This document shows positions 18,699 to 44,318 of a stretch of 64,000 nucleotides of DNA, one piece after another (the first letter of the stretch is position 1; each line of letters starts with the position of its first letter). The stretch is from a virus (Duplodnaviria; Caudoviricetes): the IMG/VR virus record IMGVR_UViG_3300009682_000003, positions 1 through 64,000 of that record; one strand, 5' to 3'. A program made the position numbers and the translations under genes. Below the pieces are notes generated by a model. The model did no database searches. It saw nothing but the letters and a program-made list of their open reading frames with translations, and was not told where the DNA came from.

Positions 18699-21443
18699 CT
18701 ACTTGGTCTGAATGATCGTGATGTCTGCCAGGACCGGGCCGGGGGCGCCCGCGACCGAGCCGCCCACGGTGAAGCCGAACGGGTTGACGCCGGCAGGGAA
18801 CTCGACGGCGCCGAGAGCTGTGTAGACCATGGCGCTCGCCGTCAGCCCCCCGTTCACGTACGGAATCCACGGGCCGGCGTAGGCCGCGCCAGGGGAGGCG
18901 GCGACCGAAACGTTTTGCAGCCACCAGACGTCGCGATCGATCGCGCCGCTGTTTGGCGCGCTGGTCTGCCCTTGCTGGAGGTGGCACTGGTTTGCGTCGA
19001 TGTACGCGCCGTCCGCGATGAGTTGGTTGAAGTCGCAGTCGCGGAAAACGCCCACCGGGTAGGCCTCGGTCCCGATGCCGGCGATCCTGGTGAGCAGCCC
19101 CGAGTGGCAGTTGTAGCCTTCGCAGATCGTCGGGGGAATGACGAAGGCGAACGCCCCGCCGAGGTCCAGCTCGTTCCACACGCAATGGTAGAGCCTGACG
19201 TGACCGGCCCGCAGCTCGGGCACGTCCGTGTCGCTCAGGTCGTTCGAGAAAATCGACTGGACGTCAACGTAGTAGGCACGGACGTGCGCCTCGTTGTGAG
19301 GCTCGATCCTGTCGACCTCGCAATGGTGGAGATCGACCGCGCCCTCCGCTCCGCTCGGGTGTGCGACGCCCGACAAGTAGTAGACCTCGAGCGTGCCCTC
19401 GTGGTTCACCTCTTGGTAGCCGACGTAGTCGAACTGCGAGATCGTCTGTTGACCGAGGATCAGGCTGTCCCGCACGAGGACGTCGCCCGTCGCGATCAGG
19501 TGCAGAGCAAGGCGCGTCCTCGCCCGGGAAATCACCAGGCACCGCCACAGCAGCAGGGGCAACGTGTCGAAGATGGTCAGGTTGGGCACGTTGCTGCCGT
19601 CGACTTTGATCGCGTAAGCGGGGCTGCCCTCCACCGGGTCGACCTGCTCGATCTGAATGTCCGTGATGTACATGCCCTGGAGGTTGTGCGTGCCCGAGTA
19701 CTCGATCACGGGCACGCTCCCGTCCGCTCCCACGATCGTTGCTCCCCACTTGCTGGTCAGCGTGATGTTGTCCACGCTGGGCCAGGTAATGTTCTCGGTG
19801 TACACGCCGGGTCCGACGAACACCACGTCGCCCGCCAGCGCCGCGTTGAGCGCAGCTTGAACGGTGAGGAACTTGTTGGTCAAGCTGTTGCGCACGCCCG
19901 TTCCGTCGTTGCCGTCCTTGCCGACGAAGACGAAGTTGGCCCACGTTACCGCGCCGCCGCCGCCGGCTGCGTCCACGCGCAGCGTTTCGTTGCCGCCGAC
20001 GTTCTGCGGAGTCAGCGTCACGTTCGATCCAGCGACGAGCTTGGTCGCGAGGAACCCTTCGGTGTTGTCGGTGAGGCTGACGCGCGCCCTGCCACCCACG
20101 CCGCCCTGCTGGTCCTGGCGGGGCTCGTTGGTCACGTCGGGCACGTAGCCGTTGTCCATGCGGTAGTCGTTCGAGCTGTTGTCGAACGCCATGCACGCGC
20201 GCAGCGTGCCCTTGCAACCTGGCTCGAAGCGAAAGCCGTCAACGTTGTTGTACGCGCTGCAACACTCGAAGACGCCGTAGCTGTCGTTGTCGAGGTCGAA
20301 GCCCTCCTCCGCGCAATTGTAAGCAGTGCAGCCGTAGACGTGCGCCGCGACGTAGTCGTCGATGTCGAACCCTTGCGCGACGTCGTGCGCGATGCACCTA
20401 CGAATGATGCCGGTACTCCACGCGCCGTAGGTCGACTGCCACGCGCCAAGCTGGTCCAGCTTGAAGGCCTCCCCTCCGTTGCCCGCCGCCACATTGAACG
20501 CGAGGCAGTCTTCGATCAGGCTGTTGAAGCAGTTTTGTAGCTGAACTTGGCGAGTGGTCTGATTGCCGCCGTCGAACGTGCACCTCGTGATGAACGTCTG
20601 ATCGAACCCGCGTACGTTCAAGGCCGCGCCCTCGATCTCCCAGTCGGCGGCGTTCACGAAATTGCAGTCGATGAACGCCAGCTTGCTCGACATTTCAGTC
20701 GCCGGGTTCGGCGGCGTCGCGTACAGGTTCCAGAAGTACGAGAGCATGACGCCGGGGGCGATGCCGACGACGTCGTGCACGTACAGGTCCGCGAAGATGA
20801 TGCGCTCCACGAGCGAGAACTCCGCGGCGAAGGAAATGAACGCGCCCCGCGAGTTGGCGACCGGGCTGGTTGCGCTGAAAAGCTCGAAGCCGCTGAACGT
20901 CACGTCCTGCGCCCCGTTGGCGAGCTTCACGCATTCCTGCCCGGTGATCTTCGGCGTGTACCCGTCCCCCGCCTTCACGACGTAACCGCCGGCCACCGCC
21001 GGAAGCGTGATCGGGTCGTAGGTAGCGTCGGTTCGTACCTCCAGCACCTGTCCGCTTGCCAGCGAGTCGATCGCCGTTTGAAGCGCTCCGCTTGCCGTGT
21101 CCGTGAGCACGACGTCCGGCACAAGCGACGGCAACGCTTCGACTCGGGCCTCCGCGATCGTGCTCCACCCGCTCTCGCTGTTGCACCCTCCCCCTTCGCC
21201 GCCGCCCGTGGCGTCGATCTGCATCTGCTCGTTGCCCCCGGGGTTCAGCAACGTGAGCGTGACGTTCGCGCCGGAAACCAGCTTGCCGGCGAGGTAGCCC
21301 GCGGTCGTATCGGACGCCTGCACCTTGACAAGCTGGTCGATCCCGCCTGCTGCGAACGCAGCCTCGATGCGGCGGTTCAGCTCGTGCCAAACGTCTTCAA
21401 GGTGCTTGTCGCGGAACGTCGTAAAGAGCCTGCGAAATGCCAT
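18699..21443 (-). CDS. Spike/fibre protein with right-handed beta-helix (pectin-lyase-like) domains
   Basis: Repeats such as CTAYNCAEEGFDL and CSAYNNVDGFRF; GKDGNDGTG...FLTVQAALNAA..GDVVFVGPGVY; shared N-terminal adaptor. Confidence 0.75.
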   Translation of the reverse strand: MAFRRLFTTFRDKHLEDVWHELNRRIEAAFAAGGIDQLVKVQASDTTAGYLAGKLVSGANVTLTLLNPGGNEQMQIDATGGGEGGGCNSESGWSTIAEARVEALPSLVPDVVLTDTASGALQTAIDSLASGQVLEVRTDATYDPITLPAVAGGYVVKAGDGYTPKITGQECVKLANGAQDVTFSGFELFSATSPVANSRGAFISFAAEFSLVERIIFADLYVHDVVGIAPGVMLSYFWNLYATPPNPATEMSSKLAFIDCNFVNAADWEIEGAALNVRGFDQTFITRCTFDGGNQTTRQVQLQNCFNSLIEDCLAFNVAAGNGGEAFKLDQLGAWQSTYGAWSTGIIRRCIAHDVAQGFDIDDYVAAHVYGCTAYNCAEEGFDLDNDSYGVFECCSAYNNVDGFRFEPGCKGTLRACMAFDNSSNDYRMDNGYVPDVTNEPRQDQQGGVGGRARVSLTDNTEGFLATKLVAGSNVTLTPQNVGGNETLRVDAAGGGGAVTWANFVFVGKDGNDGTGVRNSLTNKFLTVQAALNAALAGDVVFVGPGVYTENITWPSVDNITLTSKWGATIVGADGSVPVIEYSGTHNLQGMYITDIQIEQVDPVEGSPAYAIKVDGSNVPNLTIFDTLPLLLWRCLVISRARTRLALHLIATGDVLVRDSLILGQQTISQFDYVGYQEVNHEGTLEVYYLSGVAHPSGAEGAVDLHHCEVDRIEPHNEAHVRAYYVDVQSIFSNDLSDTDVPELRAGHVRLYHCVWNELDLGGAFAFVIPPTICEGYNCHSGLLTRIAGIGTEAYPVGVFRDCDFNQLIADGAYIDANQCHLQQGQTSAPNSGAIDRDVWWLQNVSVAASPGAAYAGPWIPYVNGGLTASAMVYTALGAVEFPAGVNPFGFTVGGSVAGAPGPVLADITIIQTK

Positions 21444-21452: not shown

Positions 21453-22349
21453 TCACGCAATGGGACCGATCGCCGCAGCGATCCGATCAAAGGCCTCTTG
21501 GACCGTCGAGGGCGGGGAGCCAGACCAGTCAGCGGGAACCGCTGGGGAGTAGACGACGCGAGGGCTCCTCGAAAGGTTGCCGTCGTCGGGTCCGAAGACC
21601 ACGGAGCCGAGGAAGCTGGGCAGCGCCGGGGGGGGCTCGGGAAAGCTGGGGCCGAGCGCGTTGTAGACAAGCGTTGCGCCGGCTTCGCCCGAAAGCCAGT
21701 TCTGCGACCATACGCCGAAGTTGTCGACGCATGCCACGATGGCGCCGTCCGCTGCGTTGACGATCGGCTGCGAGCAAACGCCACCCTGGGGACCGACGAA
21801 CCCGCTGAACGTGCCGGCGACGACGAAGAACTCTCCCGAGGCGACCTCGATCGCAGGGACTGAGCCCTGATTGTCGATCAGCGCGCCTCGATAGGCGGCG
21901 AAGACCTGGGGCACGCCTGCTTGGTCGGGGTAGGTGAAACAAGGCGCGGCGCTCGGGTGAACCCGGAGCTCCAGGCCGTCTGTGATCCCCTTCAGGTTCT
22001 GGAGCACCGCACCGTCCTGCACGTCGAGCACGACGATACCTGTTGGGAGCAACACGGAACCGAGCTGTGCGAACCGCAGGTTGTAGACGCCGGGCGGGAC
22101 CGGAGCTGGAGTGCCGATCGGTGTCTGGCGCGAGGTGTCGACGTACACCGTAGCGCCCTCGACCTGGCCGAGGAACTCCATGACCTCTTCCCAGGTGGCG
22201 ACGGCGTTGCCGGACGAAGGCGCGCCGGGCCTGTACACGATCGTGTCGGAGCTTCCGCGGATCGCGACGTCGATGCGCCGGTTCAGCTCGTGCCAGAGTT
22301 GCTCCAGGTACTTGTCCTTGAACGTCGCGAATAGCCGCTTGAACGCCAT
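21453..22349 (-). CDS. Spike/fibre-like protein 2
   Basis: Shared MAFKRLF...WHELNRRI N-terminus; C-terminal YSPAVPADW...TVQEAFDRIA. Confidence 0.65.
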   Translation of the reverse strand: MAFKRLFATFKDKYLEQLWHELNRRIDVAIRGSSDTIVYRPGAPSSGNAVATWEEVMEFLGQVEGATVYVDTSRQTPIGTPAPVPPGVYNLRFAQLGSVLLPTGIVVLDVQDGAVLQNLKGITDGLELRVHPSAAPCFTYPDQAGVPQVFAAYRGALIDNQGSVPAIEVASGEFFVVAGTFSGFVGPQGGVCSQPIVNAADGAIVACVDNFGVWSQNWLSGEAGATLVYNALGPSFPEPPPALPSFLGSVVFGPDDGNLSRSPRVVYSPAVPADWSGSPPSTVQEAFDRIAAAIGPIA

Positions 22350-22358: not shown

Positions 22359-23360
22359 CTACTTGGCAACCCAGCCGGTGTTGCCGACGCCGCTTTCCTT
22401 CACCCAGAGCGTGAGATCCTTGCCGCCGTTGGTGTCGAGGTACAGGACGCCCGGCGGGGCAGTCACCACGCCCTCGGGGCTGCCGGCGCCCCACCGCAGC
22501 CGAAAAGCTAGCGCGTCGATCGCCCCCTGCGTTTCGGTCGCTCCGAGGTGCGGAGAGGCCGAGCCCTGGAACGCAACACGCGACGCCTGCTCCGCGAGAA
22601 TGATCGTCGCTCCCGCCTGGGGCAGCGCGGTGGCGCCAGCGTTCACCACCACGACTTCCGCGACGGTGTTCGGGAGGCCTTGCACGGTGTTGTCCTGCGC
22701 CGTCGCTGCATCGAGCAGGAACACGACGAGGCCGCTTTGCCGCGACTGGGCCTGGAGCACGCTCGTGCCCGTGGACTCGACCAGCTCGCTGTCGTCTGCG
22801 AGCCACCAGTGGCTCGATCCTCCGACGAGACGGTCGCCAGAGTCGACGGTGAAGAACGGTGCGCCGCCCGTGCACTCGATCGAGCTACCTTCCGCCAGAA
22901 CGTACGTCGGGTTGCCCCCGGTGTTCGAGGCCTGCACGTCCTCGGAGGTGACCACGGGCTGCGTGCTCGCGCTTGTGATGCGCAGCGCCCTGAACTCGAA
23001 GACGCCAATCAGCCTGGCACCGTCTACACACGACAGCGGGCACTTGCCGCCCGCAGCGCCGCGCTGCCTACCGCGCATGATCGTGTACCCGCCGAGGTTC
23101 CACAAACCGGCGCCGACGATCGGCGCTCCCAGCGAGTCGTCAACGAACACAGTCTTGACGCCCGGGATTGCGGCTGCCGCGGCCACCGTCTCTGGCCACG
23201 TCCCATACACGCCGCCTCCCGTCTGCGCTCCCTGTCGGTACACGATGCTCGCAGCGCCCGAGGTCGAGTCGATGGCCGCTTGGATGCGACGGTTCAGCTC
23301 GTGCCAAACGGCTTCGAGGTGCTTGTCGTTGAACGTGGTGAACAGCTTTCGGAATGCCAT
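22359..23360 (-). CDS. Spike/fibre-like protein 3
   Basis: Shared N-terminus; C-terminal GSPEGVVTAPPGVLYLDTNGG...WVKESGVGNTGW fibre-end motif. Confidence 0.7.
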   Translation of the reverse strand: MAFRKLFTTFNDKHLEAVWHELNRRIQAAIDSTSGAASIVYRQGAQTGGGVYGTWPETVAAAAAIPGVKTVFVDDSLGAPIVGAGLWNLGGYTIMRGRQRGAAGGKCPLSCVDGARLIGVFEFRALRITSASTQPVVTSEDVQASNTGGNPTYVLAEGSSIECTGGAPFFTVDSGDRLVGGSSHWWLADDSELVESTGTSVLQAQSRQSGLVVFLLDAATAQDNTVQGLPNTVAEVVVVNAGATALPQAGATIILAEQASRVAFQGSASPHLGATETQGAIDALAFRLRWGAGSPEGVVTAPPGVLYLDTNGGKDLTLWVKESGVGNTGWVAK

Positions 23361-24538: not shown

Positions 24539-25768
24539 TCAATGCTCCTCGTAGGCGACCGTCAGGTCGGGCCGCGTCCAGCACGCTCGGCAGCCGTGTC
24601 CGACCGGCGAGCGTTCATCGTTCATGTTCCCGAAAGCGAAGCCGGGACCGCGGGCTCCAGAGCAGCAGCCGCCGACCCACTTGCCCGGCTGGCCCGCCTT
24701 GGGCTTGGCCGCGCCCCCCTCGTGGGGCGGCTTGTAGGCTGGGTACACCCACGTCGCGAGCTGCGGCGCAAGCTCTGGGGGCGCCGAGGCGGCGCTCGAC
24801 GAGTACCCGGCGTAGCCGAGGCTCGGCCCCATCTCGCGAAAGTGCATGGCGCTCGGCCTCACCACGAGGTTCGGGGGGATGCACCGCACGTCTTCGCTCG
24901 TCGGGCACGCCCCCCCTCCCCGCGGCACCCAGGTGCGCGTGGGCGCCCAGATCACCATGGGCGGCACCTCAACGGTGCGCGTGGCGACCGGCCCCGTGGT
25001 GCGCGTGACGATCGCCGGCTGGCTCAGGTTGCGCCCGATCTGGCACCACTCCTCGAAGTAGCGGCGGTTCAGGAAGTCCCCGCAGTCATGCAGCCGAAAG
25101 AAGTACGGGTCTTCGGTGAGCTGCACGTCGGTCAGCTTGCCCTGCTCGGTGAGCTTGGCGATGCGGCGGACGCTGTGCGCCTGCCGGTTGCGGATCGCCT
25201 CGGTGAACACCTCGGCCATGGCGCCTGGCTTCAGGCGCAGCATGTACCTGACGAACTGCCTGCGCACCTCCAGCGTGAGCGCGACGGTCGTGGTTGCGTA
25301 CTGCCCTTTGATGCCGTAGCAGCCGCTGCACACGTAGGTGGCGGGCTTGACTCCGATTGCGTGGGCCGCTGGCGAAAGCGGCATCGCGCGCCGCTCGTCC
25401 TCGCTCAGCATGGGGAAGCCGGGCACGCTCCCGTAGCACGAGCCGCCGAGCTTGGGAGGCCCCGCCGGCAGGTTGAACCCCCAGCACACCATCTTGCCTG
25501 CGCTGCCGAGCAGCTCGACGCTTGCCATGAAAACCTGCGGGTCGCCGGAAGCGTAGGACGACCTGGCGGGTGAGCCGATCGCCTCCCACAGCCCGTACAC
25601 GTCGCCTCGCGTGATGGGCCTCGCAAGCGGGATTTCTGGCACTCCGTTGACGATCTGCATCCTGGGCTTGCTCGGCAAGCAGGACTCGACGAGCTTGCGC
25701 ATGTGCGGCCTGATCGCGATTGCGTGCGGCTGGATCGTCTGCGCCGCGTTTTCGATGCGCGCCCCCAT
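24539..25768 (-). CDS. Gp88-like protein (Cys-rich, radical-SAM-related phage family)
   Basis: CSGCYGIKGQY, FRLHDCGDF, WAPTR, PPNLVVRPS, GCRACW. Confidence 0.75.
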   Translation of the reverse strand: MGARIENAAQTIQPHAIAIRPHMRKLVESCLPSKPRMQIVNGVPEIPLARPITRGDVYGLWEAIGSPARSSYASGDPQVFMASVELLGSAGKMVCWGFNLPAGPPKLGGSCYGSVPGFPMLSEDERRAMPLSPAAHAIGVKPATYVCSGCYGIKGQYATTTVALTLEVRRQFVRYMLRLKPGAMAEVFTEAIRNRQAHSVRRIAKLTEQGKLTDVQLTEDPYFFRLHDCGDFLNRRYFEEWCQIGRNLSQPAIVTRTTGPVATRTVEVPPMVIWAPTRTWVPRGGGACPTSEDVRCIPPNLVVRPSAMHFREMGPSLGYAGYSSSAASAPPELAPQLATWVYPAYKPPHEGGAAKPKAGQPGKWVGGCCSGARGPGFAFGNMNDERSPVGHGCRACWTRPDLTVAYEEH

Positions 25769-25770: not shown

Positions 25771-26382
25771 TCACACTCCCGAGCCAATAACGCGATCCTC
25801 TTGGGAACCGCGGTGAAGGATACCCGCAAGGGCGAGAAGGAAGCCACCGAACACGCTGATCGCGATCATCCAGTTGGCGACGTTCACTCCCTGCGCTGCT
25901 GGCTTTGCATCGTACGATACATGGCGCGGTTCGGGCACCCCCGGCAGCACGCCGCTTTGAGCTCCCTGGTCGAGAGCGGCCCGCTGCGCGTTGTAAATTG
26001 GGTCGTAGTAGACGAACGAGGGGCAGCAGTCGCCTGCCCTGTCCGCGCCGGGCTCGCACGGCCTGGTGGGGTCGCCGTCCTGCCAAGGCAGAGTGCCCTT
26101 CGACAACCACCTCACTGCGTTTGCCCGGTTCGAGTCGTTCGACCTGGCGTACCACCAGGCGAAGCACGCCAGCTCGCGCCAGTCGATCGAGTCGCACGCG
26201 CCGCCTTGCATGGTCGCGGCGGCTCCGGGGAACCAGCCGGCAGCTCGGCACACGTCGAGCAGCCGCTGCGCCTCGATCTCCCAGGCGACCACGCCAGCGC
26301 GGCGAAGCTCGCGCGCAAGCACGCGGTCCACTGCGGTCCACAGCGGCGCGTCGAACGTGATCGCCTGGCAGGGGAAGGGCAT
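25771..26382 (-). CDS. Tail-anchored Cys-containing membrane protein
   Basis: C-terminal WMIAISVFGGFLLALAGIL. Confidence 0.7.
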   Translation of the reverse strand: MPFPCQAITFDAPLWTAVDRVLARELRRAGVVAWEIEAQRLLDVCRAAGWFPGAAATMQGGACDSIDWRELACFAWWYARSNDSNRANAVRWLSKGTLPWQDGDPTRPCEPGADRAGDCCPSFVYYDPIYNAQRAALDQGAQSGVLPGVPEPRHVSYDAKPAAQGVNVANWMIAISVFGGFLLALAGILHRGSQEDRVIGSGV

Positions 26383-28059: not shown

Positions 28060-28416
28060 CTAGTCCTCGGGCGGCGTCTGCGCAGGCTTCAACCGCTCGC
28101 ACGGCTCGTTGGCCGGTCCCACGTTCGGCAGCTCCTTACGGTGGCTGCCAACGGTCACGAGCACGACGCAGGCCGCAGAGGCGACCAGCGACGTGCCGAA
28201 AGCGAAAAGCACGATCTGCACCGCCTGGCCGACGAAGGCTGGCAGGTGCGGGTAAGCAAGCCACAGGGCAGCGACGATCGCCCCCACCCAGAACCCGCTG
28301 CACATGGGGCAGCAAAGCAGGGGGGGGTAGATCGATCGCAAGCGCCTCGCGATCACACCCTGCGTGACCACGTAGGTCGCGCCGGCAGCCCCAAGGATCG
28401 CGAGCCATGCAGGCAC
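28060..28416 (-). CDS. DUF1360-like membrane protein
   Basis: TM segments around CCPMCSGFWVG. Confidence 0.65.
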   Translation of the reverse strand: MPAWLAILGAAGATYVVTQGVIARRLRSIYPPLLCCPMCSGFWVGAIVAALWLAYPHLPAFVGQAVQIVLFAFGTSLVASAACVVLVTVGSHRKELPNVGPANEPCERLKPAQTPPED

Positions 28417-28643: not shown

Positions 28644-29135
28644 TCAGACAGCCGAATTGGGCTCGACCGGCATGTTGATCACGGCCAGAACGTACAGGTT
28701 CGGCGGCGAGAACGTGGAGTACATGCTCGCGTCCTTGACGAATCCGACGAACCGCTTGCCGCCGCTGCCAAACGGGCTGACGTCGAAGGCTGGGTTGCCC
28801 GAGTCGAGCCAGACCGGGTTTCCGTTCACGGGCGACAGGCCGCTTTGGCACCACACGAGGTGCTCTCCGTTGGAGCTGACGGGGCACAGCGCCCCCACGT
28901 CGCAGCCGCCCTTGCGGTCGCACACGCCGATCGCACCCTGCTTCGAGTCGGTGTTGGCGACCATTCCGGCGGTCGTGATCTGCACTGCCTGGCCGTACAT
29001 GAGGCCGAACGGCCCCCCGTTGTACAGCCCGCCCGCCCCGGTGGCGGTGCGGATCGCCTGGCTGATCTTGCGCACCAAGATGTTGAGGTACTGCTCCAGG
29101 TGCTTGTCGGTGTGGCTAAAATTCGCGATGTCCAT
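28644..29135 (-). CDS. Putative vertex/spike-base protein with diverged adaptor N-terminus
   Basis: FSHTDKHLEQYLNILVRKISQAI resembles FRDKHLEDVWHELNRRIEAAF; beta-rich remainder. Confidence 0.55.
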   Translation of the reverse strand: MDIANFSHTDKHLEQYLNILVRKISQAIRTATGAGGLYNGGPFGLMYGQAVQITTAGMVANTDSKQGAIGVCDRKGGCDVGALCPVSSNGEHLVWCQSGLSPVNGNPVWLDSGNPAFDVSPFGSGGKRFVGFVKDASMYSTFSPPNLYVLAVINMPVEPNSAV

Positions 29136-33799: not shown

Positions 33800-33802
33800 G
33801 TC

Positions 33803-33884
33803 TCGACCTTTCGATCGGCCCGCCGGGGTCGCCCCCGGCGGGGTTCTCCCCCCCCACCTCGCAGGCGCTTACTGATCGCCTGCG
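33803..33884 (-). terminator. Three consecutive hairpins downstream of the MCP candidate
   Basis: 8-bp stem 33860-33884; 10-bp stem with GCGA loop 33819-33842; short stem with GAAA loop around 33803-33816. Confidence 0.7.
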
Positions 33885-33902
33885 GTCACGCGACGGTGTC
33901 GA

Positions 33903-37286: not shown

Positions 37287-37720
37287 GGCCAGACGAAGCC
37301 GCGTTCGTCGACCACGCACCCATCGGGCAACACGAGCATGTAGCCGAGGCCTTGCTCGTGAAAGAAGAACGGACACGGCACACTGAAACGGTGCCTGTAC
37401 CGCCCCTTCCGTTTGCCTCTTCGTGCGTAGTAGAGAACCACGGCATCGTCGAAACGCTGCCAGAGTGGCGAAGGGATTTCAACAGTCGCGCGCGTTAGCT
37501 GTGCTGACTTTCCGAAGTAATTTCGCGCAGCTACAAGCTCACCCTTGCTCAGTCTTGCGCACTCTTGTGCCGCTTTGGTGTACGGGAGCACAAGGAATGT
37601 GCACCTGTCCACAAGCCGTCCCTCAGTGTCGTGCACAAGCCCCCAGTCGTCGGGCAGCTCGATCAGGCCCCCGTCCGCCAGTTCAACGCGAACAAGATCT
37701 CCCTTGACTACGAGAGCCAA
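37283..37720 (-). CDS. hypothetical protein
   Basis: Likely TTG start after GGAGG; ATGA overlap with the next gene. Confidence 0.55.
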   Translation of the reverse strand: MALVVKGDLVRVELADGGLIELPDDWGLVHDTEGRLVDRCTFLVLPYTKAAQECARLSKGELVAARNYFGKSAQLTRATVEIPSPLWQRFDDAVVLYYARRGKRKGRYRHRFSVPCPFFFHEQGLGYMLVLPDGCVVDERGFVWP

Positions 37721-38469
37721 CCTTTGCCTCCAAGGAACCACGGCCTCACGCCAGCGATGAGCAAGCCGCCAGTCGCTACGGCAACGATCGCGAAACCCAA
37801 GGCGGCGCCCTTCGCCGCTACTTCGTCGTCCCACCGCAGCGAGCCGCTCTCCCAGCCTGCAAGAAGCACTGGCTTGATCGTTCCCACGACGCCGCTTGGC
37901 TGCTGCCACGAGTAGCCGTGCGCCACCGCTGTGTTGTACGCCGCCAGGATCTTGTTGACGTAACCGCAGTCGGTCTTGAGCCCCCACTGATCCTCGTCGC
38001 AGCACACGATCGTGCCGTCCTTCTTCTTGCGACAGTACACGCCGCACCGAGGCTTGCCGGCGTTGTAGGCCGCAGCGGAACTCACGAGGTTGCCATTGTA
38101 CCGCTTCAGGTTCGAGGCGATCAGCTTCGCTCCGAGGTCGACGTTGACGAACGGTTCCGTCGCTGCGTCCTTGTCGACCGGCGTTCCGGCTGGGATACCG
38201 GCGAGGCCGTTGTACGTCTCGGGCATGAGCTGCATGAGCCCGAGCGCGCCGGCCCAGCTCACTGCGTTCGCGTCGCCCCCCGATTCGACCGCCATGAACG
38301 CAGCGATGATCGCCTGCGGCACCCCCCTGCGCTCGCTCACTTCGTCGATGATCGAGCGCCAGCGATCCACGCCGGTCGGCCACCGTGTCGTCTGCGGGTA
38401 GGTGCCGCCGACCGAGATCCTGCCATCGGGTTCGAGCACCGCGACGGCCTCCGTGCACGGGCTTTTCAT
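37708..38469 (-). CDS. Lytic transglycosylase (SLT) with C-terminal TM anchor
   Basis: MAVESGG, GALGLMQLMP, NVDLGAKLI, AAAYNAG. Confidence 0.93.
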   Translation of the reverse strand: MKSPCTEAVAVLEPDGRISVGGTYPQTTRWPTGVDRWRSIIDEVSERRGVPQAIIAAFMAVESGGDANAVSWAGALGLMQLMPETYNGLAGIPAGTPVDKDAATEPFVNVDLGAKLIASNLKRYNGNLVSSAAAYNAGKPRCGVYCRKKKDGTIVCCDEDQWGLKTDCGYVNKILAAYNTAVAHGYSWQQPSGVVGTIKPVLLAGWESGSLRWDDEVAAKGAALGFAIVAVATGGLLIAGVRPWFLGGKGWLS

Positions 38470-39275
38470 CGCTTCCACTTCGACCTCCACGCGAGCGCTG
38501 CGAGCCCGGCTGCGACGACCAGGCCCACGCCAACGATCACGGCGGTTCCACCGGGGCCGCCGCCAGGCTTCGCTTGATCCGTCGCCCACGGTGGCGCTCC
38601 CTGCGTCGGAGGGTTCGCCCACCTTTCGATGATCGGGGCAGCGAGCAGCTTTGCATGCTCACCGTGGCTGATCGTCGTCCCGAAGTCGGCGTACAGGAAC
38701 GAGCCTCGCGTGCGAACGCTCAGCGGTTGCGGCAGATCCTTGGGCCAGTAAAGCGCGCCGTCGTCGAGCGGCTCGATGCGCTGGAGCATCCACTTGACGT
38801 ACTCGTTGCACGACGAGTAGTTCGCACCTCCGAAGCCGCTCGCGGTCACGACCATCACGCAATCGCCACGCACCGCGCGCTGAGCCGCTGCCAGGTAGCC
38901 TTCCTTCGTCGCGCCGTAGTAGCTGTCGAAGAGCATCACGGCGGACACGCGATCGGCGCTTTGCTTCAGGATCGGGTTGAGCAAGCCGTGGCCTGCGCTG
39001 AAGCTCGCAAGCGTGACCTTGCCGGCGTCGGTGATGCCCGACTTCGCCAGCAGCGCTCCGAGGATGTCGCTACCGAGCGACGAGGCCAGCCTTCCGAACG
39101 CCGAACTTCCGATGCACGACACGGTGTGCTCGGTCGTCCAGCCTGCCATGCTCCCCGCGCAGTCGTACTGGTCGGAGATCCCCTTGTTCACCACGAGCAC
39201 GACGGTGGGCTGCCGCCACTTGACGGAGCGAAGCTCGCCAGAGATCGGGCCTGCCCACACAACGGCGTCACGCAC
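38466..39275 (-). CDS. Alpha/beta-hydrolase-like protein with C-terminal TM anchor
   Basis: VTLASFSAG nucleophile elbow, VMLFDSYY, late His (SHGEH). Confidence 0.6.
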   Translation of the reverse strand: MRDAVVWAGPISGELRSVKWRQPTVVLVVNKGISDQYDCAGSMAGWTTEHTVSCIGSSAFGRLASSLGSDILGALLAKSGITDAGKVTLASFSAGHGLLNPILKQSADRVSAVMLFDSYYGATKEGYLAAAQRAVRGDCVMVVTASGFGGANYSSCNEYVKWMLQRIEPLDDGALYWPKDLPQPLSVRTRGSFLYADFGTTISHGEHAKLLAAPIIERWANPPTQGAPPWATDQAKPGGGPGGTAVIVGVGLVVAAGLAALAWRSKWKR

Positions 39276-40428
39276 GAGTCACCGCCTGCGCCACCTTCAC
39301 CCCGAGGTAGCCGGCGGCTGCTCCGATTGCGAAGGACAGCGCGGCGCCAGCGGCGCTTGTGCCCTCTTCCTTGGCGCCGGGCACGGTCGGAGGCGTTCCC
39401 GCTGGTGGCGTGTTCGTTGCGGGAGGGGGCGTCGCTCCCGACGCCCAGCGCTTCCAGTTCAAGCTGTAGTCCTGCGTGCCGTTCCAGTCCTGCTTGGGGA
39501 TCGTCACCCCGCCTGGGTTCACTTGTTCGCAGTCGCTGGCGGGCGGCTGTCCGACGCCAGCGATCATGCCGGTGATGCACACGCCCTTGTTCGGGTCTTG
39601 CTCGTTCCAGCGATCGACAACGAGCTTCTCGAACACGCGAGGCAGCACGCGCAGCGCCTGGTACTTGTGGTCGCCCACCCCGGTGGGATCGAGGTTGTTG
39701 AACCCCATGATCACCATGCCGTTCTTCTTGATGTAGTACCTGTCGGGGCTGTGCGTGTAGATCGTTTGCGGATAGGACACGCCGCCGGGCAGCTTGCCCG
39801 CAGGCGCGACATACGGTGGCACCTCGTCCACGTCGTAGGTTCCAGGCGGAAGCTCCTCCCAGTCCTCGGGCCAGTCACCGAGAGCATACAAAAGGATCAG
39901 CGCCGCGGTGCGCGTGGTGCTCGCGAACTTGTACGGCGGGTAGAGCTGGTCACCGATCGCGCTGTGCGTGATGATGCAGTGACGCCTGCCGATCGGCGCC
40001 TTCGAGTCAGCGGGAAGCCCGTTCGCGGCGATTGTGGCGAACTCGATCCACGGAGCGAGCGCTGGGATGCTCACGTTAGACCTGTCCTTGTTCGGCTCGC
40101 CGTTGAATCCGGCGTGGATGCCGTCGATCGCGACCGCGGTGTCTACCAGGCCGGCGTCTTGGCTTTTGAGCAGCTCGCGCACGCCCTGGCACGACTCGCT
40201 GAAGCCGAGCAGAGCAACGCGCGCCGGCTGCACCTGGGTGCCCAGCTTGTCGCGCACGAGCTTGCGGATCGGCTGCGGCCCCCAGCTCGCGACTTGCTCG
40301 CGGTAGCCTCGGTTGGGAGGCGTGGGCACGGTGATGAAAACGACGGGGCGCTGGAACTTCGCCTGCACCTCTTTGGGTACGGAGGCGAAGCTCCACGAGA
40401 TCACGACGTCGCGTTGTTCGGTTGCCAT
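39268..40428 (-). CDS. Alpha/beta-hydrolase-like paralog with C-terminal TM anchor
   Basis: VALLGFSES, AVAIDGIH, IITHS, GDHKYQ. Confidence 0.6.
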   Translation of the reverse strand: MATEQRDVVISWSFASVPKEVQAKFQRPVVFITVPTPPNRGYREQVASWGPQPIRKLVRDKLGTQVQPARVALLGFSESCQGVRELLKSQDAGLVDTAVAIDGIHAGFNGEPNKDRSNVSIPALAPWIEFATIAANGLPADSKAPIGRRHCIITHSAIGDQLYPPYKFASTTRTAALILLYALGDWPEDWEELPPGTYDVDEVPPYVAPAGKLPGGVSYPQTIYTHSPDRYYIKKNGMVIMGFNNLDPTGVGDHKYQALRVLPRVFEKLVVDRWNEQDPNKGVCITGMIAGVGQPPASDCEQVNPGGVTIPKQDWNGTQDYSLNWKRWASGATPPPATNTPPAGTPPTVPGAKEEGTSAAGAALSFAIGAAAGYLGVKVAQAVTRA

Positions 40429-40436: not shown

Positions 40437-41942
40437 TCACCCGTACATGGGCAGCATGGGGTACGGGCTCGGATAGCCCATCATGCCGCCGTAGCGGCGG
40501 CGCGAAGAGAACGCCGACACCGCGTACACGAGCGCGGCGGCGGCTCCCAAGCCCACAACGGAGATCCCCACGATCTTCGCGGTTTGGGCGAACTCGGTGA
40601 GCGGGTCGTGCTTTTGCGTCTCGGCCTGTGCGGCTGCTTGCTGCTGTGCGGTTTCGCCCAGCGAGCGCATGAGCCGCTCGACCTCTTGGGGCGTGTAGCG
40701 CTTCGACAGCTCGGCCTGGTGCTCGATGAGATCCTTGCGCCTCCTTCGCTCGATGTAGTCCTTCGCGGTGCTCGCGGCGGCAACCACGGCAATGGCGCCC
40801 GCGATCGTCGCGGCGATCACGATGATCACGACGCCGGCTCCGATTTGCGGCGCGGCCCCAACGAAGCCCGCTGGGATCACGCTCGCGACCGTCTGGTCGT
40901 TCGAGGTCAGGATGATCTCTCCGTCTCCCTTTACGTAAACGGCTGGCTCGTACGAGTAGGCGACGGGTCCGGTCCTGCCGGTCGCCTGATCCGTCTCGAC
41001 GCGGCGCTTGCCGTCCGCTGCGTCCTTCGAGTAGGCCGCGGTGACGGTCGCGATCTTGTCGAGGTTGCGCAAGCGGTCCTCGTGCTCTTGTGTCCACTGT
41101 CCCTCGCCGCCAGCGTACACGTACTGGTCGACGACGGGCTTGCCCATCGCTTCGCGCGTCGCGCGCATAAGCAGGTAGGAGCGCACGAGGTCGCCCTGCG
41201 CCTGCCTGAGCTTGCCGTACACCGCAGCAAACGCCGCTTGCGTCGCGGCGAGATCCTGCCCCGTCAAGGGCACCAGCTCAGTTGCCATGGTTCCTCCAGT
41301 TGCTGGCTGGCCTACGCCAACCGCGATGCTCGGTGGGCTCCCAACCCCGACGAAGTCTCCGTTCACCCTCGGCTTGAGAGCCGGCGGCGAGGCGTCACAG
41401 CGGCCCGCCCGATCGCACAGAACTTCCAGCTCGGGGACGCTGACCCAAACCTCTTGCGAGGGAGGCCGGCTCGTGCCGAAAGCGAAGCGCGCGGACGGGT
41501 CCGCGTAGTGCCACTGGTGGCCGTCCCAGGCCGAGGCAAGGACGTGTTCGAGCGCGGTGTCCTCGTAACGGTGCGCGACGACGGCAGCCCTGATCCCGAC
41601 CGATTCCCACGCCGCCACGAGCGCGACGACGAGGTCGTCGCAATCCCCTCCGTTCAGCGTGAGGCCTTCGCAGTCTGCCACCACGCAGTCGGCGGCGACG
41701 ATAAGCTCGGCGTCGACCGGGTCGGGCACGTAGATTTTTTCGCGCACCAGGCCGTCGTAGATCGCGCGCGCTCGCTCGAGCGTCGAGGTGGGAGAACCGG
41801 CCTCCCTGATCTTGTCGATCGCCCACTTGCGCACCCACACGTTGCGGCGACCGCTCGCGGCCTTCTCTGCTGTCTTCCACACCGATCGCCAGGCCCCCAC
41901 CTGGCCTCTTGGGTGCGTGCCCAGCTCGACGCGCGGAGACAT
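40437..41942 (-). CDS. Transglutaminase-like (papain-fold) putative protease fused to a two-TM membrane domain
   Basis: GGDCDDL (Cys), EHVL (His), WHYADPS (Asp); TMs in C-half. Confidence 0.8.
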   Translation of the reverse strand: MSPRVELGTHPRGQVGAWRSVWKTAEKAASGRRNVWVRKWAIDKIREAGSPTSTLERARAIYDGLVREKIYVPDPVDAELIVAADCVVADCEGLTLNGGDCDDLVVALVAAWESVGIRAAVVAHRYEDTALEHVLASAWDGHQWHYADPSARFAFGTSRPPSQEVWVSVPELEVLCDRAGRCDASPPALKPRVNGDFVGVGSPPSIAVGVGQPATGGTMATELVPLTGQDLAATQAAFAAVYGKLRQAQGDLVRSYLLMRATREAMGKPVVDQYVYAGGEGQWTQEHEDRLRNLDKIATVTAAYSKDAADGKRRVETDQATGRTGPVAYSYEPAVYVKGDGEIILTSNDQTVASVIPAGFVGAAPQIGAGVVIIVIAATIAGAIAVVAAASTAKDYIERRRRKDLIEHQAELSKRYTPQEVERLMRSLGETAQQQAAAQAETQKHDPLTEFAQTAKIVGISVVGLGAAAALVYAVSAFSSRRRYGGMMGYPSPYPMLPMYG

Positions 41943-41945: not shown

Positions 41946-42329
41946 TCACCCTCCGTAGCGCAGGTTGATCGTGTGCATCGGCGGGTGATAGCTGCCGGTG
42001 TGGGGCGTAACCGGAATCCAGCCGCACCTGCCCTTGACCAGCACTTCCGCCTCGTCGACCACGGCCTGCGTCGACATGCACTTGCCCTGCACGCAGGTCG
42101 GCAGCCCTGCCGCAACCATGGCGCTCGCGAGCATGAGCGACGCCCTTGCGTCGCCCCCTTGGATAGCCTGGACGAACGGGGCGGCTATCGCCTGGGAGGC
42201 GTCAAACGGGTCAATGGCCCTCGCGCGGGACAGCACAAGGTGCACCCACTGCTTGAGCTCTGGCCGCATCGACGCCTGCCAAACGTCGCTGCCCAACGTC
42301 CTGAACGAGCATGCGCTGCACGGGAACAT
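41946..42329 (-). CDS. Possible inactive transglutaminase-like paralog
   Basis: GGDARASLMLASAMVAAGL...EAEVLVKGRCGWIPVTP parallels the neighbour with Cys and His lost. Confidence 0.45.
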   Translation of the reverse strand: MFPCSACSFRTLGSDVWQASMRPELKQWVHLVLSRARAIDPFDASQAIAAPFVQAIQGGDARASLMLASAMVAAGLPTCVQGKCMSTQAVVDEAEVLVKGRCGWIPVTPHTGSYHPPMHTINLRYGG

Positions 42330-42356
42330 GCCATGACGTTACACCAGCGCTGGCCG

Positions 42357-44318
42357 TCAGCCAATGTTGCCGAGGAGTGACGCGAGCGAGCCCACCATTT
42401 GCTGCGCTGCCGCTTGCTGCTGCGCGGTGGGTTGCTGCGGTGGCGGTTGCTGGGGGGGGGGTTGCTGAAACTGCGGAGCCGGGGGCCTCTGCTGCTGCGG
42501 GGGGACGACTCCAGAGGTGTTCACTTGCGGGATCGCGCGAAGCAACGGAGCGACGTTGCTCACGTACTGGCGAAGCTCGTTGTACCGCTGGTTTGTCTCT
42601 TGGAGCTGCGCGACGAGCTGGCGCGTCTGCTCGCCCTCCGCAGCCTCGGCTTGCTTCTTCATGAACTCGGCGTAGCCCTTCAGCGCGCCGAAGATATTGT
42701 CCATGTTCAGGCCGAGCTGGTCGACCAGCCCCATGGGCTTCTTGGTGACCGGGTCTATCGCGGTGCGCCACCCGTTGCGCTCGATGATGGCCGACTCGTC
42801 GCCCTCTTTCGCCGCCGAGGCGTTCTGCTGCTGCTGCGGCTCGATCTCGCGCATCATGTTGCGCAGGTTCATGACGAGCGACAGCGCCTGCTGCGCCGCC
42901 TCGACCGGGCCTGGCGGCGGCTGCGCCGGCTGCTGAGCTTGCTGCTGCGGCTGCGCCGGCTGCGCCGGCTGTTGCGGCTGCGGTGGCTGTTGCGACCACT
43001 GCTGCTGAACCCACTGTTGCTGCTGCCACGGGGGGAGCTGGAAAACCCAAGGCGGGATCTGTTGCACCCACGGTGGGAGCTGCATGGTCTGCTGCTGTGG
43101 GAACGGCTGCCCGATCTGCCCTTGCTGCCAGGGGGGCTGGCCCCACTGCCCTTGCTGTTGCTGCCAGGGGGGCTGGCCCCACTGCCCTTGCTGTTGCTGC
43201 CACGACTGCTGGGGCGCGCCGAACCCTGGCTGCGGCTGCTGGGCCGCTGCCCTAGCTTGCGCTTGCGCGGACTCCAACACCGAGGAGATCCGGTCCTCCA
43301 AGTCGTCGAGCTTCGCGCGCAGCATTTCGGCCTCTGGGTTGGGCGGCGGCGGCGGCGGCGGCGCTTGTGCAACCCCAGCCGCAGTAGGCTGCGCCGGGTG
43401 TTCGGAGGCCTGGGAGCTGCGCTTCGCGACGTCCGCCACCTGCTGTGCGAGCTGCCACATTTGCCACTGAAGCAACGTCCACTGCTCTCGCTCTTGCGCA
43501 GACTGTTGGGCAGGCGGCTGTCCCCACCCGCCTTGCCCCCACTGCTGCGGAAACTGCTGCGGCGGGAACTGCTGCGGCGGGAACTGCTGGGCCTGCGGCT
43601 GGCTCGGCGTCGGGACCGGCGGCTGAGCAGGCGCCGGGGCCGGGGGTGGTGGCTCGGGAGCTGCTGGCGCGGGCGCCGCAATATCCCGCGCGTAGCTCGC
43701 CAGCTTCTGTGTATCGTACGATGCAGGCCAGGGCTGGTGCATCCACGGGGGCATTCCGTTTCCGCCTTGTGCCCAGGGTGGCGGCTGCATCCAGGGCGGC
43801 ATCTGTGCCCACCACGGTGGCTGCTGCTGCTGCTGCTGCGGCTGTTCCTGCCTCGTCGGTTCCTGTCGGGGAGGTTCGCCCATCATTCGCTCCTTCCAGC
43901 GGCGCTGCGCCTCGGGGTTCGCGGCCTTGACGATCTGGTCCTGCGCTCGAACGATGATGGGGCCGTCGTGGATCTTCCACTCGAAACTTGCTTCCTCGCC
44001 GTTCCAGTACCGCTCTTCGATATGCCGCGTTAGGTCGTCGTACTGGGGCACCGCCGCGAGCGGCAGGCTGAAGCAATGCGCCTCGATCGGCCTCACCTGC
44101 GTGACAACTACCTTGAGCGCGCCGCCGTAGGCGCGCATCACTGGGTTGTATCGCATCGCTCCGCGGTTCTTCCACGACACGCGCGGCTTGCCGGCTTGCT
44201 TCTGAGCGATCACCGACGCGGCGATCTCGCTCTCGCGCTTGGAGTCTTCGTCGAAGTACTCGGGCGTGTCCTGCTCGTCCTGCACCTCGTCGTCTTCGTC
44301 GTCGTCACGCTTCGCCAT
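42357..44318 (-). CDS. Gln/Pro/Trp-rich low-complexity protein with coiled coils
   Basis: Acidic start, folded N-domain, QQQQGQWGQPPW repeats, helical C-part. Confidence 0.8.
   Translation of the reverse strand: MAKRDDDEDDEVQDEQDTPEYFDEDSKRESEIAASVIAQKQAGKPRVSWKNRGAMRYNPVMRAYGGALKVVVTQVRPIEAHCFSLPLAAVPQYDDLTRHIEERYWNGEEASFEWKIHDGPIIVRAQDQIVKAANPEAQRRWKERMMGEPPRQEPTRQEQPQQQQQQPPWWAQMPPWMQPPPWAQGGNGMPPWMHQPWPASYDTQKLASYARDIAAPAPAAPEPPPPAPAPAQPPVPTPSQPQAQQFPPQQFPPQQFPQQWGQGGWGQPPAQQSAQEREQWTLLQWQMWQLAQQVADVAKRSSQASEHPAQPTAAGVAQAPPPPPPPNPEAEMLRAKLDDLEDRISSVLESAQAQARAAAQQPQPGFGAPQQSWQQQQGQWGQPPWQQQQGQWGQPPWQQGQIGQPFPQQQTMQLPPWVQQIPPWVFQLPPWQQQQWVQQQWSQQPPQPQQPAQPAQPQQQAQQPAQPPPGPVEAAQQALSLVMNLRNMMREIEPQQQQNASAAKEGDESAIIERNGWRTAIDPVTKKPMGLVDQLGLNMDNIFGALKGYAEFMKKQAEAAEGEQTRQLVAQLQETNQRYNELRQYVSNVAPLLRAIPQVNTSGVVPPQQQRPPAPQFQQPPPQQPPPQQPTAQQQAAAQQMVGSLASLLGNIG
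43117..43203. repeat. 36-bp tandem repeat encoding QQQQGQWGQPPW
   Basis: ccccactgcccttgctgttgctgcca at 43141 and 43177. Confidence 0.9.

What the first reader, a model, noticed from the sequence alone, without database searches (positions are those of the whole stretch)
18699..44318. Structural module of a large tailless, internal-membrane (jelly-roll-type) virus, probably of Myxococcota
Seen: about 26 kb of co-oriented genes with no recognisable terminase, portal, HK97 capsid, tape measure, sheath or baseplate. In their place are a 398-aa soluble beta-rich gene bracketed by hairpins, two further beta-rich genes, a basic membrane protein upstream, about ten tail-anchored proteins, a membrane-anchored SLT and several spikes. 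Known: PRD1-like varidnaviruses combine a roughly 400-aa double jelly-roll MCP, many small membrane proteins, a virion transglycosylase and vertex spikes, but characterised bacterial members have genomes of roughly 10-20 kb and do not use DnaB plus an HTH initiator. Inference: a temperate tailless virus of more than 64 kb, likely an undescribed lineage.
Basis: partly seen in the sequence, partly recalled or inferred. Interest (0 to 1): 0.88.

Follow-up and report, generated by a model that had tools for sequence, protein, structure and literature searches.

The report
Large tailless jelly-roll membrane virus
This is the structural gene block of an uncultured, roughly 76-kb circular bacterial virus that has none of the genes of tailed phages; it appears to build a tailless, membrane-containing particle from a jelly-roll capsid protein, at about four times the genome size of any described bacterial virus of that kind and with no recognisable DNA-packaging motor.

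Summary
Window 18.7-44.3 kb is one minus-strand block. It lacks terminase, portal and HK97 capsid genes, and carries 8-9 tail-anchored membrane proteins, a membrane-anchored SLT and three spikes with a shared N-terminus.

The window belongs to a 72.7-kb IMG/VR record. Sibling contigs close it into a ~76.2-kb circle with no host flanks. DnaB is the only convincing P-loop protein in the whole genome.

The gene order SLT, ~150 aa, ~550-780 aa, capsid candidate, ~210 aa, ~270 aa is kept in distant relatives, while the replication genes are swapped.

Not supported: an FtsK/A32 packaging ATPase (absent), a Myxococcota host (no evidence) and temperateness (integrase only).

Best reading: an undescribed lineage of large tailless jelly-roll viruses (confidence about 0.5). 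The scan's first readers flagged the same genes of this genome independently (e1-5892309).

The parts
42357..44318 (-). 653-aa acidic protein with a long Gln/Pro-rich low-complexity centre. Candidate scaffold or core protein.
   Evidence: Translation. The N-terminal ~130 residues are conserved in G001 and G002. No Pfam or PHROG hit.
41946..42329 (-). Small conserved soluble protein (107-127 aa)
   Evidence: Conserved in relative L032. Sibling contigs call it at 107 aa.
40437..41942 (-). 501-aa protein with a transglutaminase-like (papain-fold) domain and two C-terminal TM helices. Candidate virion protease or wall hydrolase.
   Evidence: Pfam Transglut_core E 5.7e-5. TM segments 371-389 and 457-475. 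Second most conserved gene, E 1e-51 to 1e-52 against G001 and G002.
39268..40428 (-). 386-aa tail-anchored protein
   Evidence: C-terminal TM. 35-46% identical in G001, G002 and L032.
38466..39275 (-). 269-aa tail-anchored protein
   Evidence: C-terminal TM 244-262. Conserved in G001.
37708..38478 (-). Lytic transglycosylase (SLT) with a C-terminal membrane anchor
   Evidence: Pfam SLT E 7.6e-23. TM 226-244 of 256 aa. An SLT sits at the same position in L004, L012, L030 and L032.
37283..37720 (-). 145-aa conserved soluble protein
   Evidence: Gene call in sibling contigs. Conserved in G001, G002 and L032.
35175..37376 (-). 703-733-aa basic protein (pI 10.1) with DUF6582, Lys/Arg-rich repeats and a central membrane region, directly upstream of the capsid candidate
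   Evidence: The TM-containing part (residues 365-537) is conserved in G001 and G002.
33903..35099 (-). 398-aa major capsid protein candidate with a jelly-roll core
33800..33902 (-). Two stable GC-rich hairpins directly after the capsid candidate gene, without a U tract
   Evidence: RNA fold -58.3 kcal/mol, z -2.85. Not a canonical intrinsic terminator.
33161..33799 (-). 212-aa soluble protein. Candidate minor capsid or vertex protein.
   Evidence: Always directly follows the capsid candidate in relatives. Alignment A3. ESM Atlas model pTM 0.71. The nearest Pfam-named clusters are PM2 coat P2_N/P2_C at score 0.78, which is a lead only.
32343..33161 (-). 272-aa soluble protein whose start overlaps the stop of the 212-aa gene. 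Second candidate shell-associated protein.
   Evidence: Conserved synteny and alignment A4. Fold unknown.
31467..32339 (-). 290-aa tail-anchored protein
   Evidence: TM 240-258.
30084..31463 (-). 459-aa tail-anchored protein with a Cys-rich C-x-P-F/W-P-x-C module before the anchor
   Evidence: Translation. TM 440-458. Conserved in G001 and G002.
29175..30071 (-). 298-aa tail-anchored protein. I infer that the N-terminal domain is LysM-like.
   Evidence: PHROG hits to endolysin and baseplate-hub families at residues 7-56 only. TM 252-270.
28644..29135 (-). 163-aa soluble protein whose N-terminus is a diverged copy of the spike N-terminal module
   Evidence: Translation.
28060..28416 (-). 118-aa protein with three TM helices
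   Evidence: Conserved in G001 and G002.
26386..28029 (-). 547-aa tail-anchored protein with three Cys-rich modules
25771..26382 (-). 203-aa tail-anchored protein
24539..25768 (-). 409-aa Cys-rich GP88-family protein (PF17338) of unknown role, conserved within the block
   Evidence: Pfam E 2.3e-9. Conserved in G001. Called GP88 in sibling contigs.
22359..23360 (-). 333-aa spike or fibre with the shared N-terminal module
   Evidence: Translation. C-terminal PHROG hits of unknown function.
21453..22349 (-). 298-aa spike or fibre with the shared N-terminal module
   Evidence: Translation.
18699..21443 (-). 914-aa spike with a right-handed beta-helix domain and the shared N-terminal module
   Evidence: Pfam Beta_helix E 1.1e-8. 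PHROG 'tail fiber protein' E 3e-5.
17251..18690 (-). DnaB replicative helicase, the only convincing P-loop protein of the genome. Flanks the module and is not part of it.
   Evidence: Pfam DnaB_C E 2.8e-83. Walker A scans.
45654..46775 (-). 373-aa HTH_36 protein. Candidate replication initiator, at the upstream border of the module.
   Evidence: Pfam HTH_36 E 7.7e-14. The same gene borders the module in L004.

Best explanation
The block is the virion module of an uncultured bacterial dsDNA virus with a circular map of about 76.2 kb. The virus has no tail.

Proposed particle (inferred): the 398-aa jelly-roll protein forms the outer shell, probably together with the 212-aa and 272-aa proteins encoded directly behind it. 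The shell encloses a lipid vesicle studded with the virus's own membrane proteins. The three proteins with a common ~30-residue N-terminus are interchangeable receptor-binding spikes docked on the shell, one of them a beta-helix enzyme.

Proposed assembly and entry (inferred): the many tail-anchored proteins have no signal peptide. In the producing cell their wall-directed domains therefore stay on the cytoplasmic face, which becomes the space between membrane and shell. They could reach peptidoglycan only when the particle opens on a new host, as is known for PRD1 P7. These proteins include the SLT, the N-terminal domains I take to be LysM-like, and the transglutaminase-like papain-fold protein.

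Proposed packaging (open): there is no recognisable motor. DNA may be condensed by basic proteins and enclosed during assembly, or a non-P-loop or host motor may be used. The candidate basic proteins are the 703-aa protein upstream of the capsid gene and a histone-H1-like repeat protein at 1262-2746.

Shown here: gene content, conservation, genome closure, the jelly-roll core, membrane anchors.

Inferred: shell role, internal membrane, entry role of the enzymes, packaging mode.
For: 1. The whole genome was examined. Sibling contigs at 99.9-100% identity bridge G000's end to its start through 3,447 bp. Four assemblies of 73.5-76.3 kb are broken at different points and carry no host genes.

2. 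Six-frame HMM searches of this record and of two relatives (72.4 and 33 kb) find no Terminase_6N, Phage_portal, HK97 Phage_capsid, FtsK_SpoIIIE or Pox_A32, while the control genomes respond. Pfam and PHROG scans of the proteins agree.

3. In the Walker A scans only DnaB is a convincing P-loop protein. The other motif matches are a Gly/Lys-rich stretch in the SprT-like protein and ORFs with non-coding composition.

5. It is the most conserved gene between G000, G001 and G002 (E 1e-64 to 1e-66). It defines a family of 115 representatives.

6. The order SLT, ~150 aa, ~550-780 aa, capsid candidate, ~205-226 aa, ~265-330 aa recurs in distant members. Replication genes differ between relatives: DnaB plus HTH_36 here, AAA_25-wHTH in G001.

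7. The region has 8-9 tail-anchored and 2 polytopic membrane proteins, and two more lie in the closing gap.

8. Strong hairpins follow the capsid candidate gene, and a GGAG sits 7-8 nt before its ATG.

9. There is precedent for jelly-roll viruses without a detectable packaging ATPase: the Odin group (PMC5894146).
Against: - No sequence-level link to any capsid family was found.
- The folds of the 212-aa and 272-aa proteins were not established.
- Every well-studied internal-membrane icosahedral dsDNA virus has an FtsK/HerA-type packaging ATPase, and none exists here.
- There is no particle, proteome, lipid or virome-fraction evidence.
- The host is unknown.
Confidence: 0.5

Rival explanations
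1. A capsid-less, vesicle-type element. The DNA is wrapped in a host-derived membrane vesicle carrying the element's own spikes and membrane proteins, as in a pleomorphic enveloped virus or a plasmid that spreads in vesicles. The 398-aa jelly-roll protein would then be a matrix, nucleoid or surface protein and not an icosahedral shell.
For: There is no packaging ATPase of any kind in the complete genome, which such particles would not need. There is an unusual number of membrane proteins. Basic DNA-binding-type proteins are present. The structural similarity to capsid proteins is weak.
Against: - Known pleomorphic membrane viruses have genomes of roughly 7-17 kb and wall-less or S-layer hosts (my own knowledge).
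- This element carries several peptidoglycan-directed enzymes.
- The best structural neighbours are shell proteins of icosahedral membrane viruses.
- The strictly conserved trio of soluble proteins after a strongly structured intergenic region looks like a capsid gene cassette.
Confidence: 0.17
2. A non-viral plasmid-like replicon whose large operon encodes cell-envelope or surface proteins, and which was misclassified as viral by automated pipelines.
For: Assemblies are circularly permuted without host flanks. It has plasmid-like replication genes, DnaB plus an HTH initiator. There is no virus hallmark by sequence.
Against: - There is no convincing P-loop protein other than DnaB. That means no ParA-type partition ATPase and no VirB4/VirD4/TraG-type conjugation ATPase, which is unusual for a 76-kb plasmid.
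- The beta-helix spike and its relatives share exchangeable N-termini, as phage receptor-binding proteins do.
- Wall hydrolases lack export signals.
- No homolog exists in 72,556 plasmid records.
- The block is conserved while replication genes are swapped, which is typical of virus morphogenetic modules.
Confidence: 0.12
3. A tailed phage whose terminase, portal, capsid and tail genes have diverged beyond recognition.
For: Many genes have no annotation at all. One PHROG 'tail fiber' hit and one 'baseplate hub' hit exist.
Against: - Large terminases are P-loop ATPases, and none exists in the complete genome.
- Six-frame searches for terminase, portal and HK97 capsid are negative in three related records, with positive controls.
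- The most conserved structural protein folds as a jelly roll, not HK97.
- The two tail-labelled hits fall on a generic beta-helix and on a short N-terminal domain that also matches an endolysin family.
Confidence: 0.03

Closest known systems
Tectiviridae (PRD1, PR772), Varidnaviria / Bamfordvirae
   Different: The genome is about 76 kb and circular, against about 15 kb and linear with terminal proteins. Replication uses DnaB plus an HTH initiator in place of protein-primed PolB. There is no P9-type packaging ATPase. A double jelly-roll is not demonstrated. There is no sequence similarity.
Helvetiavirae / Singelaviria (P23-77, HCIV-1, HHIV-2, SH1): vertical single jelly-roll capsid proteins
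   Different: The hallmark cassette of ATPase, small MCP and large MCP is not present, because the ATPase is missing. The capsid candidate, at 398 aa, is much longer than the matched capsid chains (135-228 residues). The genome is more than twice the roughly 31 kb of the largest members (my own knowledge). Membership of the 212-aa and 272-aa proteins is untested.
'Odin group' of metagenomic DJR viruses (Yutin et al. 2018, PMC5894146)
   Same: A jelly-roll capsid virus lineage with no detectable packaging ATPase. A small conserved gene next to the MCP is suspected to stand in for it.
   Different: Those genomes fall in the 7-18 kb range and their MCPs are clear DJR proteins similar to STIV and PM2. 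Here the genome is 76 kb and the MCP is not assignable.
Corticoviridae (PM2)
   Same: A circular dsDNA genome, an internal membrane and a tailless particle. The ESM Atlas places the 212-aa protein nearest to clusters with the PM2 coat domains P2_N/P2_C, but at score 0.78, which is below the tool's reliability level.
   Different: PM2 has a 10-kb genome (my own knowledge). No Pfam P2_N/P2_C hit appears for any of 9 family members even at E 10. There is no packaging ATPase.

Membership tests
Varidnaviria / Bamfordvirae (PRD1-like DJR viruses) | Major capsid protein with two jelly-roll barrels in one chain | tested here: inconclusive
Varidnaviria / Bamfordvirae (PRD1-like DJR viruses) | FtsK/HerA-superfamily (A32-like) genome-packaging ATPase | tested here: not met
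   Six-frame searches with PF01580 and PF04665 are negative in G000, G001 and G002, with positive controls. The only convincing Walker A protein in the closed genome is DnaB.
Varidnaviria / Bamfordvirae (PRD1-like DJR viruses) | Single jelly-roll penton (minor capsid) protein | tested here: inconclusive
   The 212-aa protein always follows the capsid candidate. The Atlas model has pTM 0.71, with a weak PM2-coat lead. There is no Pfam or PDB sequence support.
Varidnaviria / Bamfordvirae (PRD1-like DJR viruses) | Virus-encoded membrane proteins within the structural module (sequence proxy for an internal membrane) | tested here: met
   8-9 tail-anchored and 2 polytopic proteins between 25.7 and 42 kb.
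Varidnaviria / Bamfordvirae (PRD1-like DJR viruses) | Lipid membrane inside the capsid | not testable with these tools
   Needs particles: lipid analysis, chloroform sensitivity, cryo-EM.
Singelaviria / Helvetiavirae (P23-77, SH1, HCIV-1) | Two adjacent vertical single jelly-roll capsid protein genes | tested here: inconclusive
Singelaviria / Helvetiavirae (P23-77, SH1, HCIV-1) | Packaging ATPase gene adjacent to the capsid genes | tested here: not met
   The gene upstream of the capsid candidate is a basic membrane protein.
Caudoviricetes (tailed phages) | Large terminase | tested here: not met
   PF03237 six-frame search negative. No terminase PHROG or Pfam hit on any protein scanned. No convincing P-loop besides DnaB.
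Caudoviricetes (tailed phages) | Portal protein | tested here: not met
   PF04860 six-frame search negative, with positive controls. Only this one portal family was searched in six frames. PHROG scans of the large proteins were also negative.
Caudoviricetes (tailed phages) | HK97-fold major capsid protein | tested here: not met
   PF05065 negative. The most conserved structural protein folds as a jelly roll, with no HK97-type structure among the matches listed.
Conjugative or partitioned plasmid | P-loop ATPases of conjugation (VirB4, coupling protein) or partition (ParA) | tested here: not met
   Walker A scans of all six frames of the closed genome.

The most novel reading that the evidence does not exclude
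This is a previously unrecognised high-rank lineage of bacterial dsDNA viruses. It has circular genomes of about 60-76 kb or more. Its jelly-roll capsid protein belongs to neither the DJR (Varidnaviria) nor the vertical SJR (Singelaviria) capsid families. It fills a large membrane-containing particle without any P-loop packaging motor, which implies a new way of enclosing a large dsDNA genome.
Probability: 0.3. Interest if true: 0.92.

Novelty: new variant of a known kind. Interest (0 to 1): 0.78.

Why it matters
Described tailless, membrane-containing bacterial viruses are small. A census of prokaryotic DJR viruses puts them at 7-18 kb (PMC5894146), and large bacterial viruses are assumed to be tailed.

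A recurrent 76-kb circular replicon appears in many independent metagenomes, with relatives in mangrove and coastal sediment samples. If it builds a jelly-roll capsid around a membrane, three things follow:
- It would break that size rule.
- It would add a deep branch to the jelly-roll virus world.
- It would pose a concrete problem: how 76 kb of DNA is enclosed without a terminase or an FtsK-type ATPase.

It also shows that hallmark-gene-based virus finders and taxonomies can miss whole lineages. The 115-member capsid family has no annotation anywhere.

Tried and rejected
Complex prediction:
- Capsid candidate + 272-aa + 212-aa, with the 212-aa protein as the scored partner: no verdict, score 0.30 against a mark of 0.32, controls not run. 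It counts neither way.

Fold searches:
- The first fold, from 8 sequences, was poor (pLDDT 61). It was replaced by the 61-sequence model.
- Foldseek against PDB and BFVD gave nothing at E <= 0.001.

Sequence and profile tests:
- hhalign found no similarity between the two halves of the 398-aa family, or among the 398-, 212- and 272-aa families.
- The PM2 P2 lead for the 212-aa protein got no support from a permissive Pfam scan or a PDB profile search.
- The ESM Atlas was uninformative for the 272-aa protein because its own model is poor.

AAA ATPase as packaging motor:
- The AAA ATPase upstream of the module in relative L032 is rejected as a core packaging motor. It has no counterpart in G000, G001 or G002.
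- G001's two P-loop ORFs are replication-type or AAA+ proteins.

Host assignment failed:
- No tRNA genes.
- No capsid homolog in species-representative genomes by pattern scan.
- The DnaB scan returned only generic ~40% hits to Bacillota MAGs.

Other:
- No canonical promoters or terminators around the capsid gene.
- Literature searches found no description of such a lineage.
Full report
WHAT THE WINDOW IS

The window is bases 1-64000 of a 72,723-bp IMG/VR virus record that CheckV rates 96% complete. GC content is about 67%. GC3-based gene calling shows every gene between 18699 and about 47900 on the minus strand.

I closed the genome. A look-up of the record's last gene returned four near-identical contigs of 73.5-76.3 kb from different samples. 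Each runs from G000's end, through 3,447 extra bases, into G000's start, and each is broken at a different point. The map is therefore circular, or circularly permuted, at about 76.2 kb. One contig of 76,340 bp is 100% identical to G000 on both flanks. No contig carries host genes. The exact protein is indexed in 55 blocks of the assembly collection, so the replicon recurs widely.

CHECKING THE OBSERVATION

The description holds.
- Pfam and PHROG scans of the module's proteins found no terminase, portal, HK97 capsid, tape measure, sheath or baseplate.
- The only tail-labelled hits are a beta-helix match to a tail-fibre PHROG, and a short N-terminal match that also hits an endolysin family.
- The SLT domain is clear (E 7.6e-23) and carries a C-terminal anchor.
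- Eight proteins are cleanly tail-anchored. A ninth has two C-terminal helices, and two are polytopic.
- The 914-, 333- and 298-aa proteins share about 30 N-terminal residues. A 163-aa protein has a diverged copy.
- The protein upstream of the 398-aa gene is basic (pI 10.1) with membrane segments.
- Only the hairpin claim needs correction. The region downstream of the 398-aa gene folds into two strong GC stems (z -2.85), while the upstream one is no better than shuffled sequence.

IS ANYTHING OF A TAILED PHAGE OR A PACKAGING MOTOR HIDDEN ELSEWHERE?

No.
- Six-frame HMM searches of this record and of two IMG/VR relatives found no Terminase_6N, Phage_portal, HK97 Phage_capsid, FtsK_SpoIIIE or Pox_A32. 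Control genomes responded. The relatives are G001 (72,434 bp) and G002 (33 kb).
- A Walker A scan of all six frames, including the 3.4-kb closing gap, finds one convincing P-loop protein, DnaB at 17251-18690.
- The gap encodes two more tail-anchored proteins, a thioredoxin and small unknowns.
- G001's structural module wraps around its contig ends, so that genome is also essentially whole.
- G001's two P-loop ORFs are an AAA_25-wHTH replication protein and a GNAT-AAA+ fusion.
- An AAA protein upstream of the module in another relative (L032) has no counterpart in G000, G001 or G002.

The FtsK/A32 ATPase it hoped to find is not there either.

THE 398-AA PROTEIN

It has no Pfam, PHROG or PDB sequence match. 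An exhaustive profile search found 115 representatives at 50% identity, nearly all 390-470 aa and none annotated.

With a 61-sequence alignment AlphaFold gave a confident model: pLDDT 86.9, pTM 0.86, about 18 strands and four longer helices.

Structure searches returned only jelly-roll or beta-sandwich folds.
- No HK97-type structure appears.

My conclusions are limited to two.
- The protein has a jelly-roll core.
- Its closest solved neighbours are disproportionately shell proteins of membrane-containing tailless viruses.

Single-barrel proteins of 90-180 residues align from about residue 25 to about 365 of the model. I therefore suspect one barrel built from both ends of the chain, with a 150-200-residue insertion. 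This resembles the large capsid proteins of Helvetiavirae or papillomavirus L1 more than a PRD1-type double barrel. I could not trace the topology because no coordinates are exposed, so this stays open.

CONTEXT AND CONSERVATION

The 398-aa protein is the most conserved gene between G000, G001 and G002 (33-35% identity over its full length, E 1e-64 to 1e-66). Next come the transglutaminase-like protein, the 386-aa protein, the SLT and the 272-aa protein.

The order SLT, ~150 aa, ~550-780 aa basic or membrane protein, capsid candidate, ~205-226 aa, ~265-330 aa recurs in contigs of 19-140 kb that carry family members down to E 5e-16.

The replication genes differ between relatives. A conserved morphogenetic block with exchangeable replication modules is the usual pattern for viruses.

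The family has no member among 50,697 deposited phage genomes or 72,556 plasmids. A pattern scan of species-representative genomes found none.

G001 comes from a Mai Po sediment metagenome (PMC6461988). G002 comes from sample 3300017971, a metagenome credited to D. Valentine in PMC7449369.

HOW IT MOST LIKELY WORKS

This section is inference unless marked.

I propose that the jelly-roll protein, probably with the 212-aa and 272-aa proteins, forms a shell around a vesicle carrying the virus's membrane proteins. The start of the 272-aa gene overlaps the stop of the 212-aa gene.

The argument for an internal membrane goes beyond the count of TM proteins.
- The wall-directed enzymes (the SLT, the N-terminal domains I take to be LysM-like, and a papain-fold protein) have C-terminal anchors and no signal peptides.
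- In the producing cell their catalytic parts would therefore face the cytoplasm, where there is no substrate.
- That topology makes sense if the membrane patch is taken into the particle and the enzymes act on the next host's wall, as is known for PRD1's membrane-anchored transglycosylase P7 (my own knowledge).

The three proteins with a shared N-terminus would be alternative receptor-binding spikes plugged into a common socket.

Packaging is the open problem. With no P-loop motor, either DNA is condensed and enclosed during assembly, or an unrecognised or host motor is used. Candidate condensing proteins are the basic 703-aa protein and a histone-H1-like protein at 1262-2746 with KKPAKKASKRPAKAAA-type repeats. 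The ATPase-less Odin group of DJR viruses is a precedent (PMC5894146).

RIVALS

- Vesicle-type, capsid-less particle or plasmid vesicle. This would explain the missing motor and the membrane proteins. It fits poorly with wall-directed enzymes, the capsid-like neighbours of the fold and the conserved three-gene cassette (0.17).
- Plain plasmid. This is unlikely without any partition or conjugation ATPase, and with phage-type spikes (0.12).
- Divergent tailed phage. This is close to excluded (0.03).

COMPARISON WITH KNOWN GROUPS

The element works most like tectiviruses, corticoviruses and Helvetiavirae. It fails one defining test of both the Bamfordvirae and the Helvetiavirae, the packaging ATPase. 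The other defining test, the capsid fold class, is inconclusive. I therefore do not file it in either.

ICTV now separates the two capsid types into different realms (PMC12714852). The placement of this family thus matters at the highest taxonomic rank.

The genome is about four times the upper bound reported for prokaryotic DJR viruses.

- 'Temperate': a tyrosine recombinase exists at 48519-49613, and G002 has a homolog. No integrated copy was seen.
- 'Myxococcota': nothing tested here speaks for or against it.

VERDICT

This is a real, recurrent and essentially unannotated virus-like replicon. Its virion module is best read as that of a large tailless, membrane-containing, jelly-roll virus of an undescribed lineage. 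Confidence in the complete picture is about 0.5. Confidence is much higher (above 0.9) that it is not a tailed phage, and that the 398-aa family is a new jelly-roll protein family.

Noticed in passing
window 1262-2746 (minus strand); L033-L036 about 15380-15790: A 494-aa protein ends in a histone-H1-like array of KKPAKKASKRPAKAAA-type repeats encoded by a ~69-bp tandem repeat. The copy number differs between otherwise 99.9-100% identical sibling contigs, giving products of 411, 480 and 494 aa. It may be a DNA-condensing protein.
   Followed up: partly
window 26386-28029 and 30084-31463 (minus strand); thioredoxin gene in the closing gap (L033 13279-13605): Two tail-anchored proteins carry a repeated Cys-rich module (N-W-x-C-x-P-F/W-P-x-C-L...C-x-P-F/W-P-x-C). 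The genome also encodes its own thioredoxin-fold protein. The virus may form disulfides in virion proteins.
   Followed up: no
G000 72723 -> 1, bridged by L033 10660-14106: The record lacks 3,447 bp of the circular genome. The gap holds a 348-aa and a 296-aa (DUF333) tail-anchored protein, a 122-aa protein, a thioredoxin and small ORFs. CheckV's 96% estimate agrees with 72.7 of 76.2 kb.
   Followed up: yes
window 17251-18690 and 45654-46775 versus G001 47497-48705 (L008 7497-8705): The replication module is swapped between relatives that share the structural block: DnaB plus an HTH_36 protein here, an AAA_25-wHTH protein in G001.
   Followed up: partly
window 57946-58704 (+), 56186-57178 (-), 4271-5194 (+), 14548-15471 (-), 62971-63555 (-): The genome has a DpdA-family protein (E 3e-63), one clear (4271-5194) and one weak (56186-57178) PAPS-reductase/PP-loop-like protein, a C5 cytosine methylase and a probable N6 methylase. 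I saw no recognisable 7-deazaguanine synthesis genes. The DNA is probably heavily modified.
   Followed up: no
window 2-685, 15776-16384, 51812-52720, 47260-47865 (all minus strand): Further wall- or lipid-active enzymes lie outside the module: NlpC/P60-CHAP, a second weak SLT-like protein conserved in G001, a CHAP-like protein and an SGNH/GDSL hydrolase next to RadC.
   Followed up: no
L032 1401-2717: One relative carries a classical AAA ATPase (PF00004, 438 aa) a few genes upstream of the structural block. It is absent from G000, G001 and G002.
   Followed up: yes
window 18699-21443 (minus strand), residues about 40-85 and 455-500: The 914-aa spike contains two copies of a ~45-residue segment (…AGYLAGKLV.G.NVTL…GGNE…D A.GGG). 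The segment also matches proteins in G001 and G002, perhaps as a module boundary for domain exchange.
   Followed up: no
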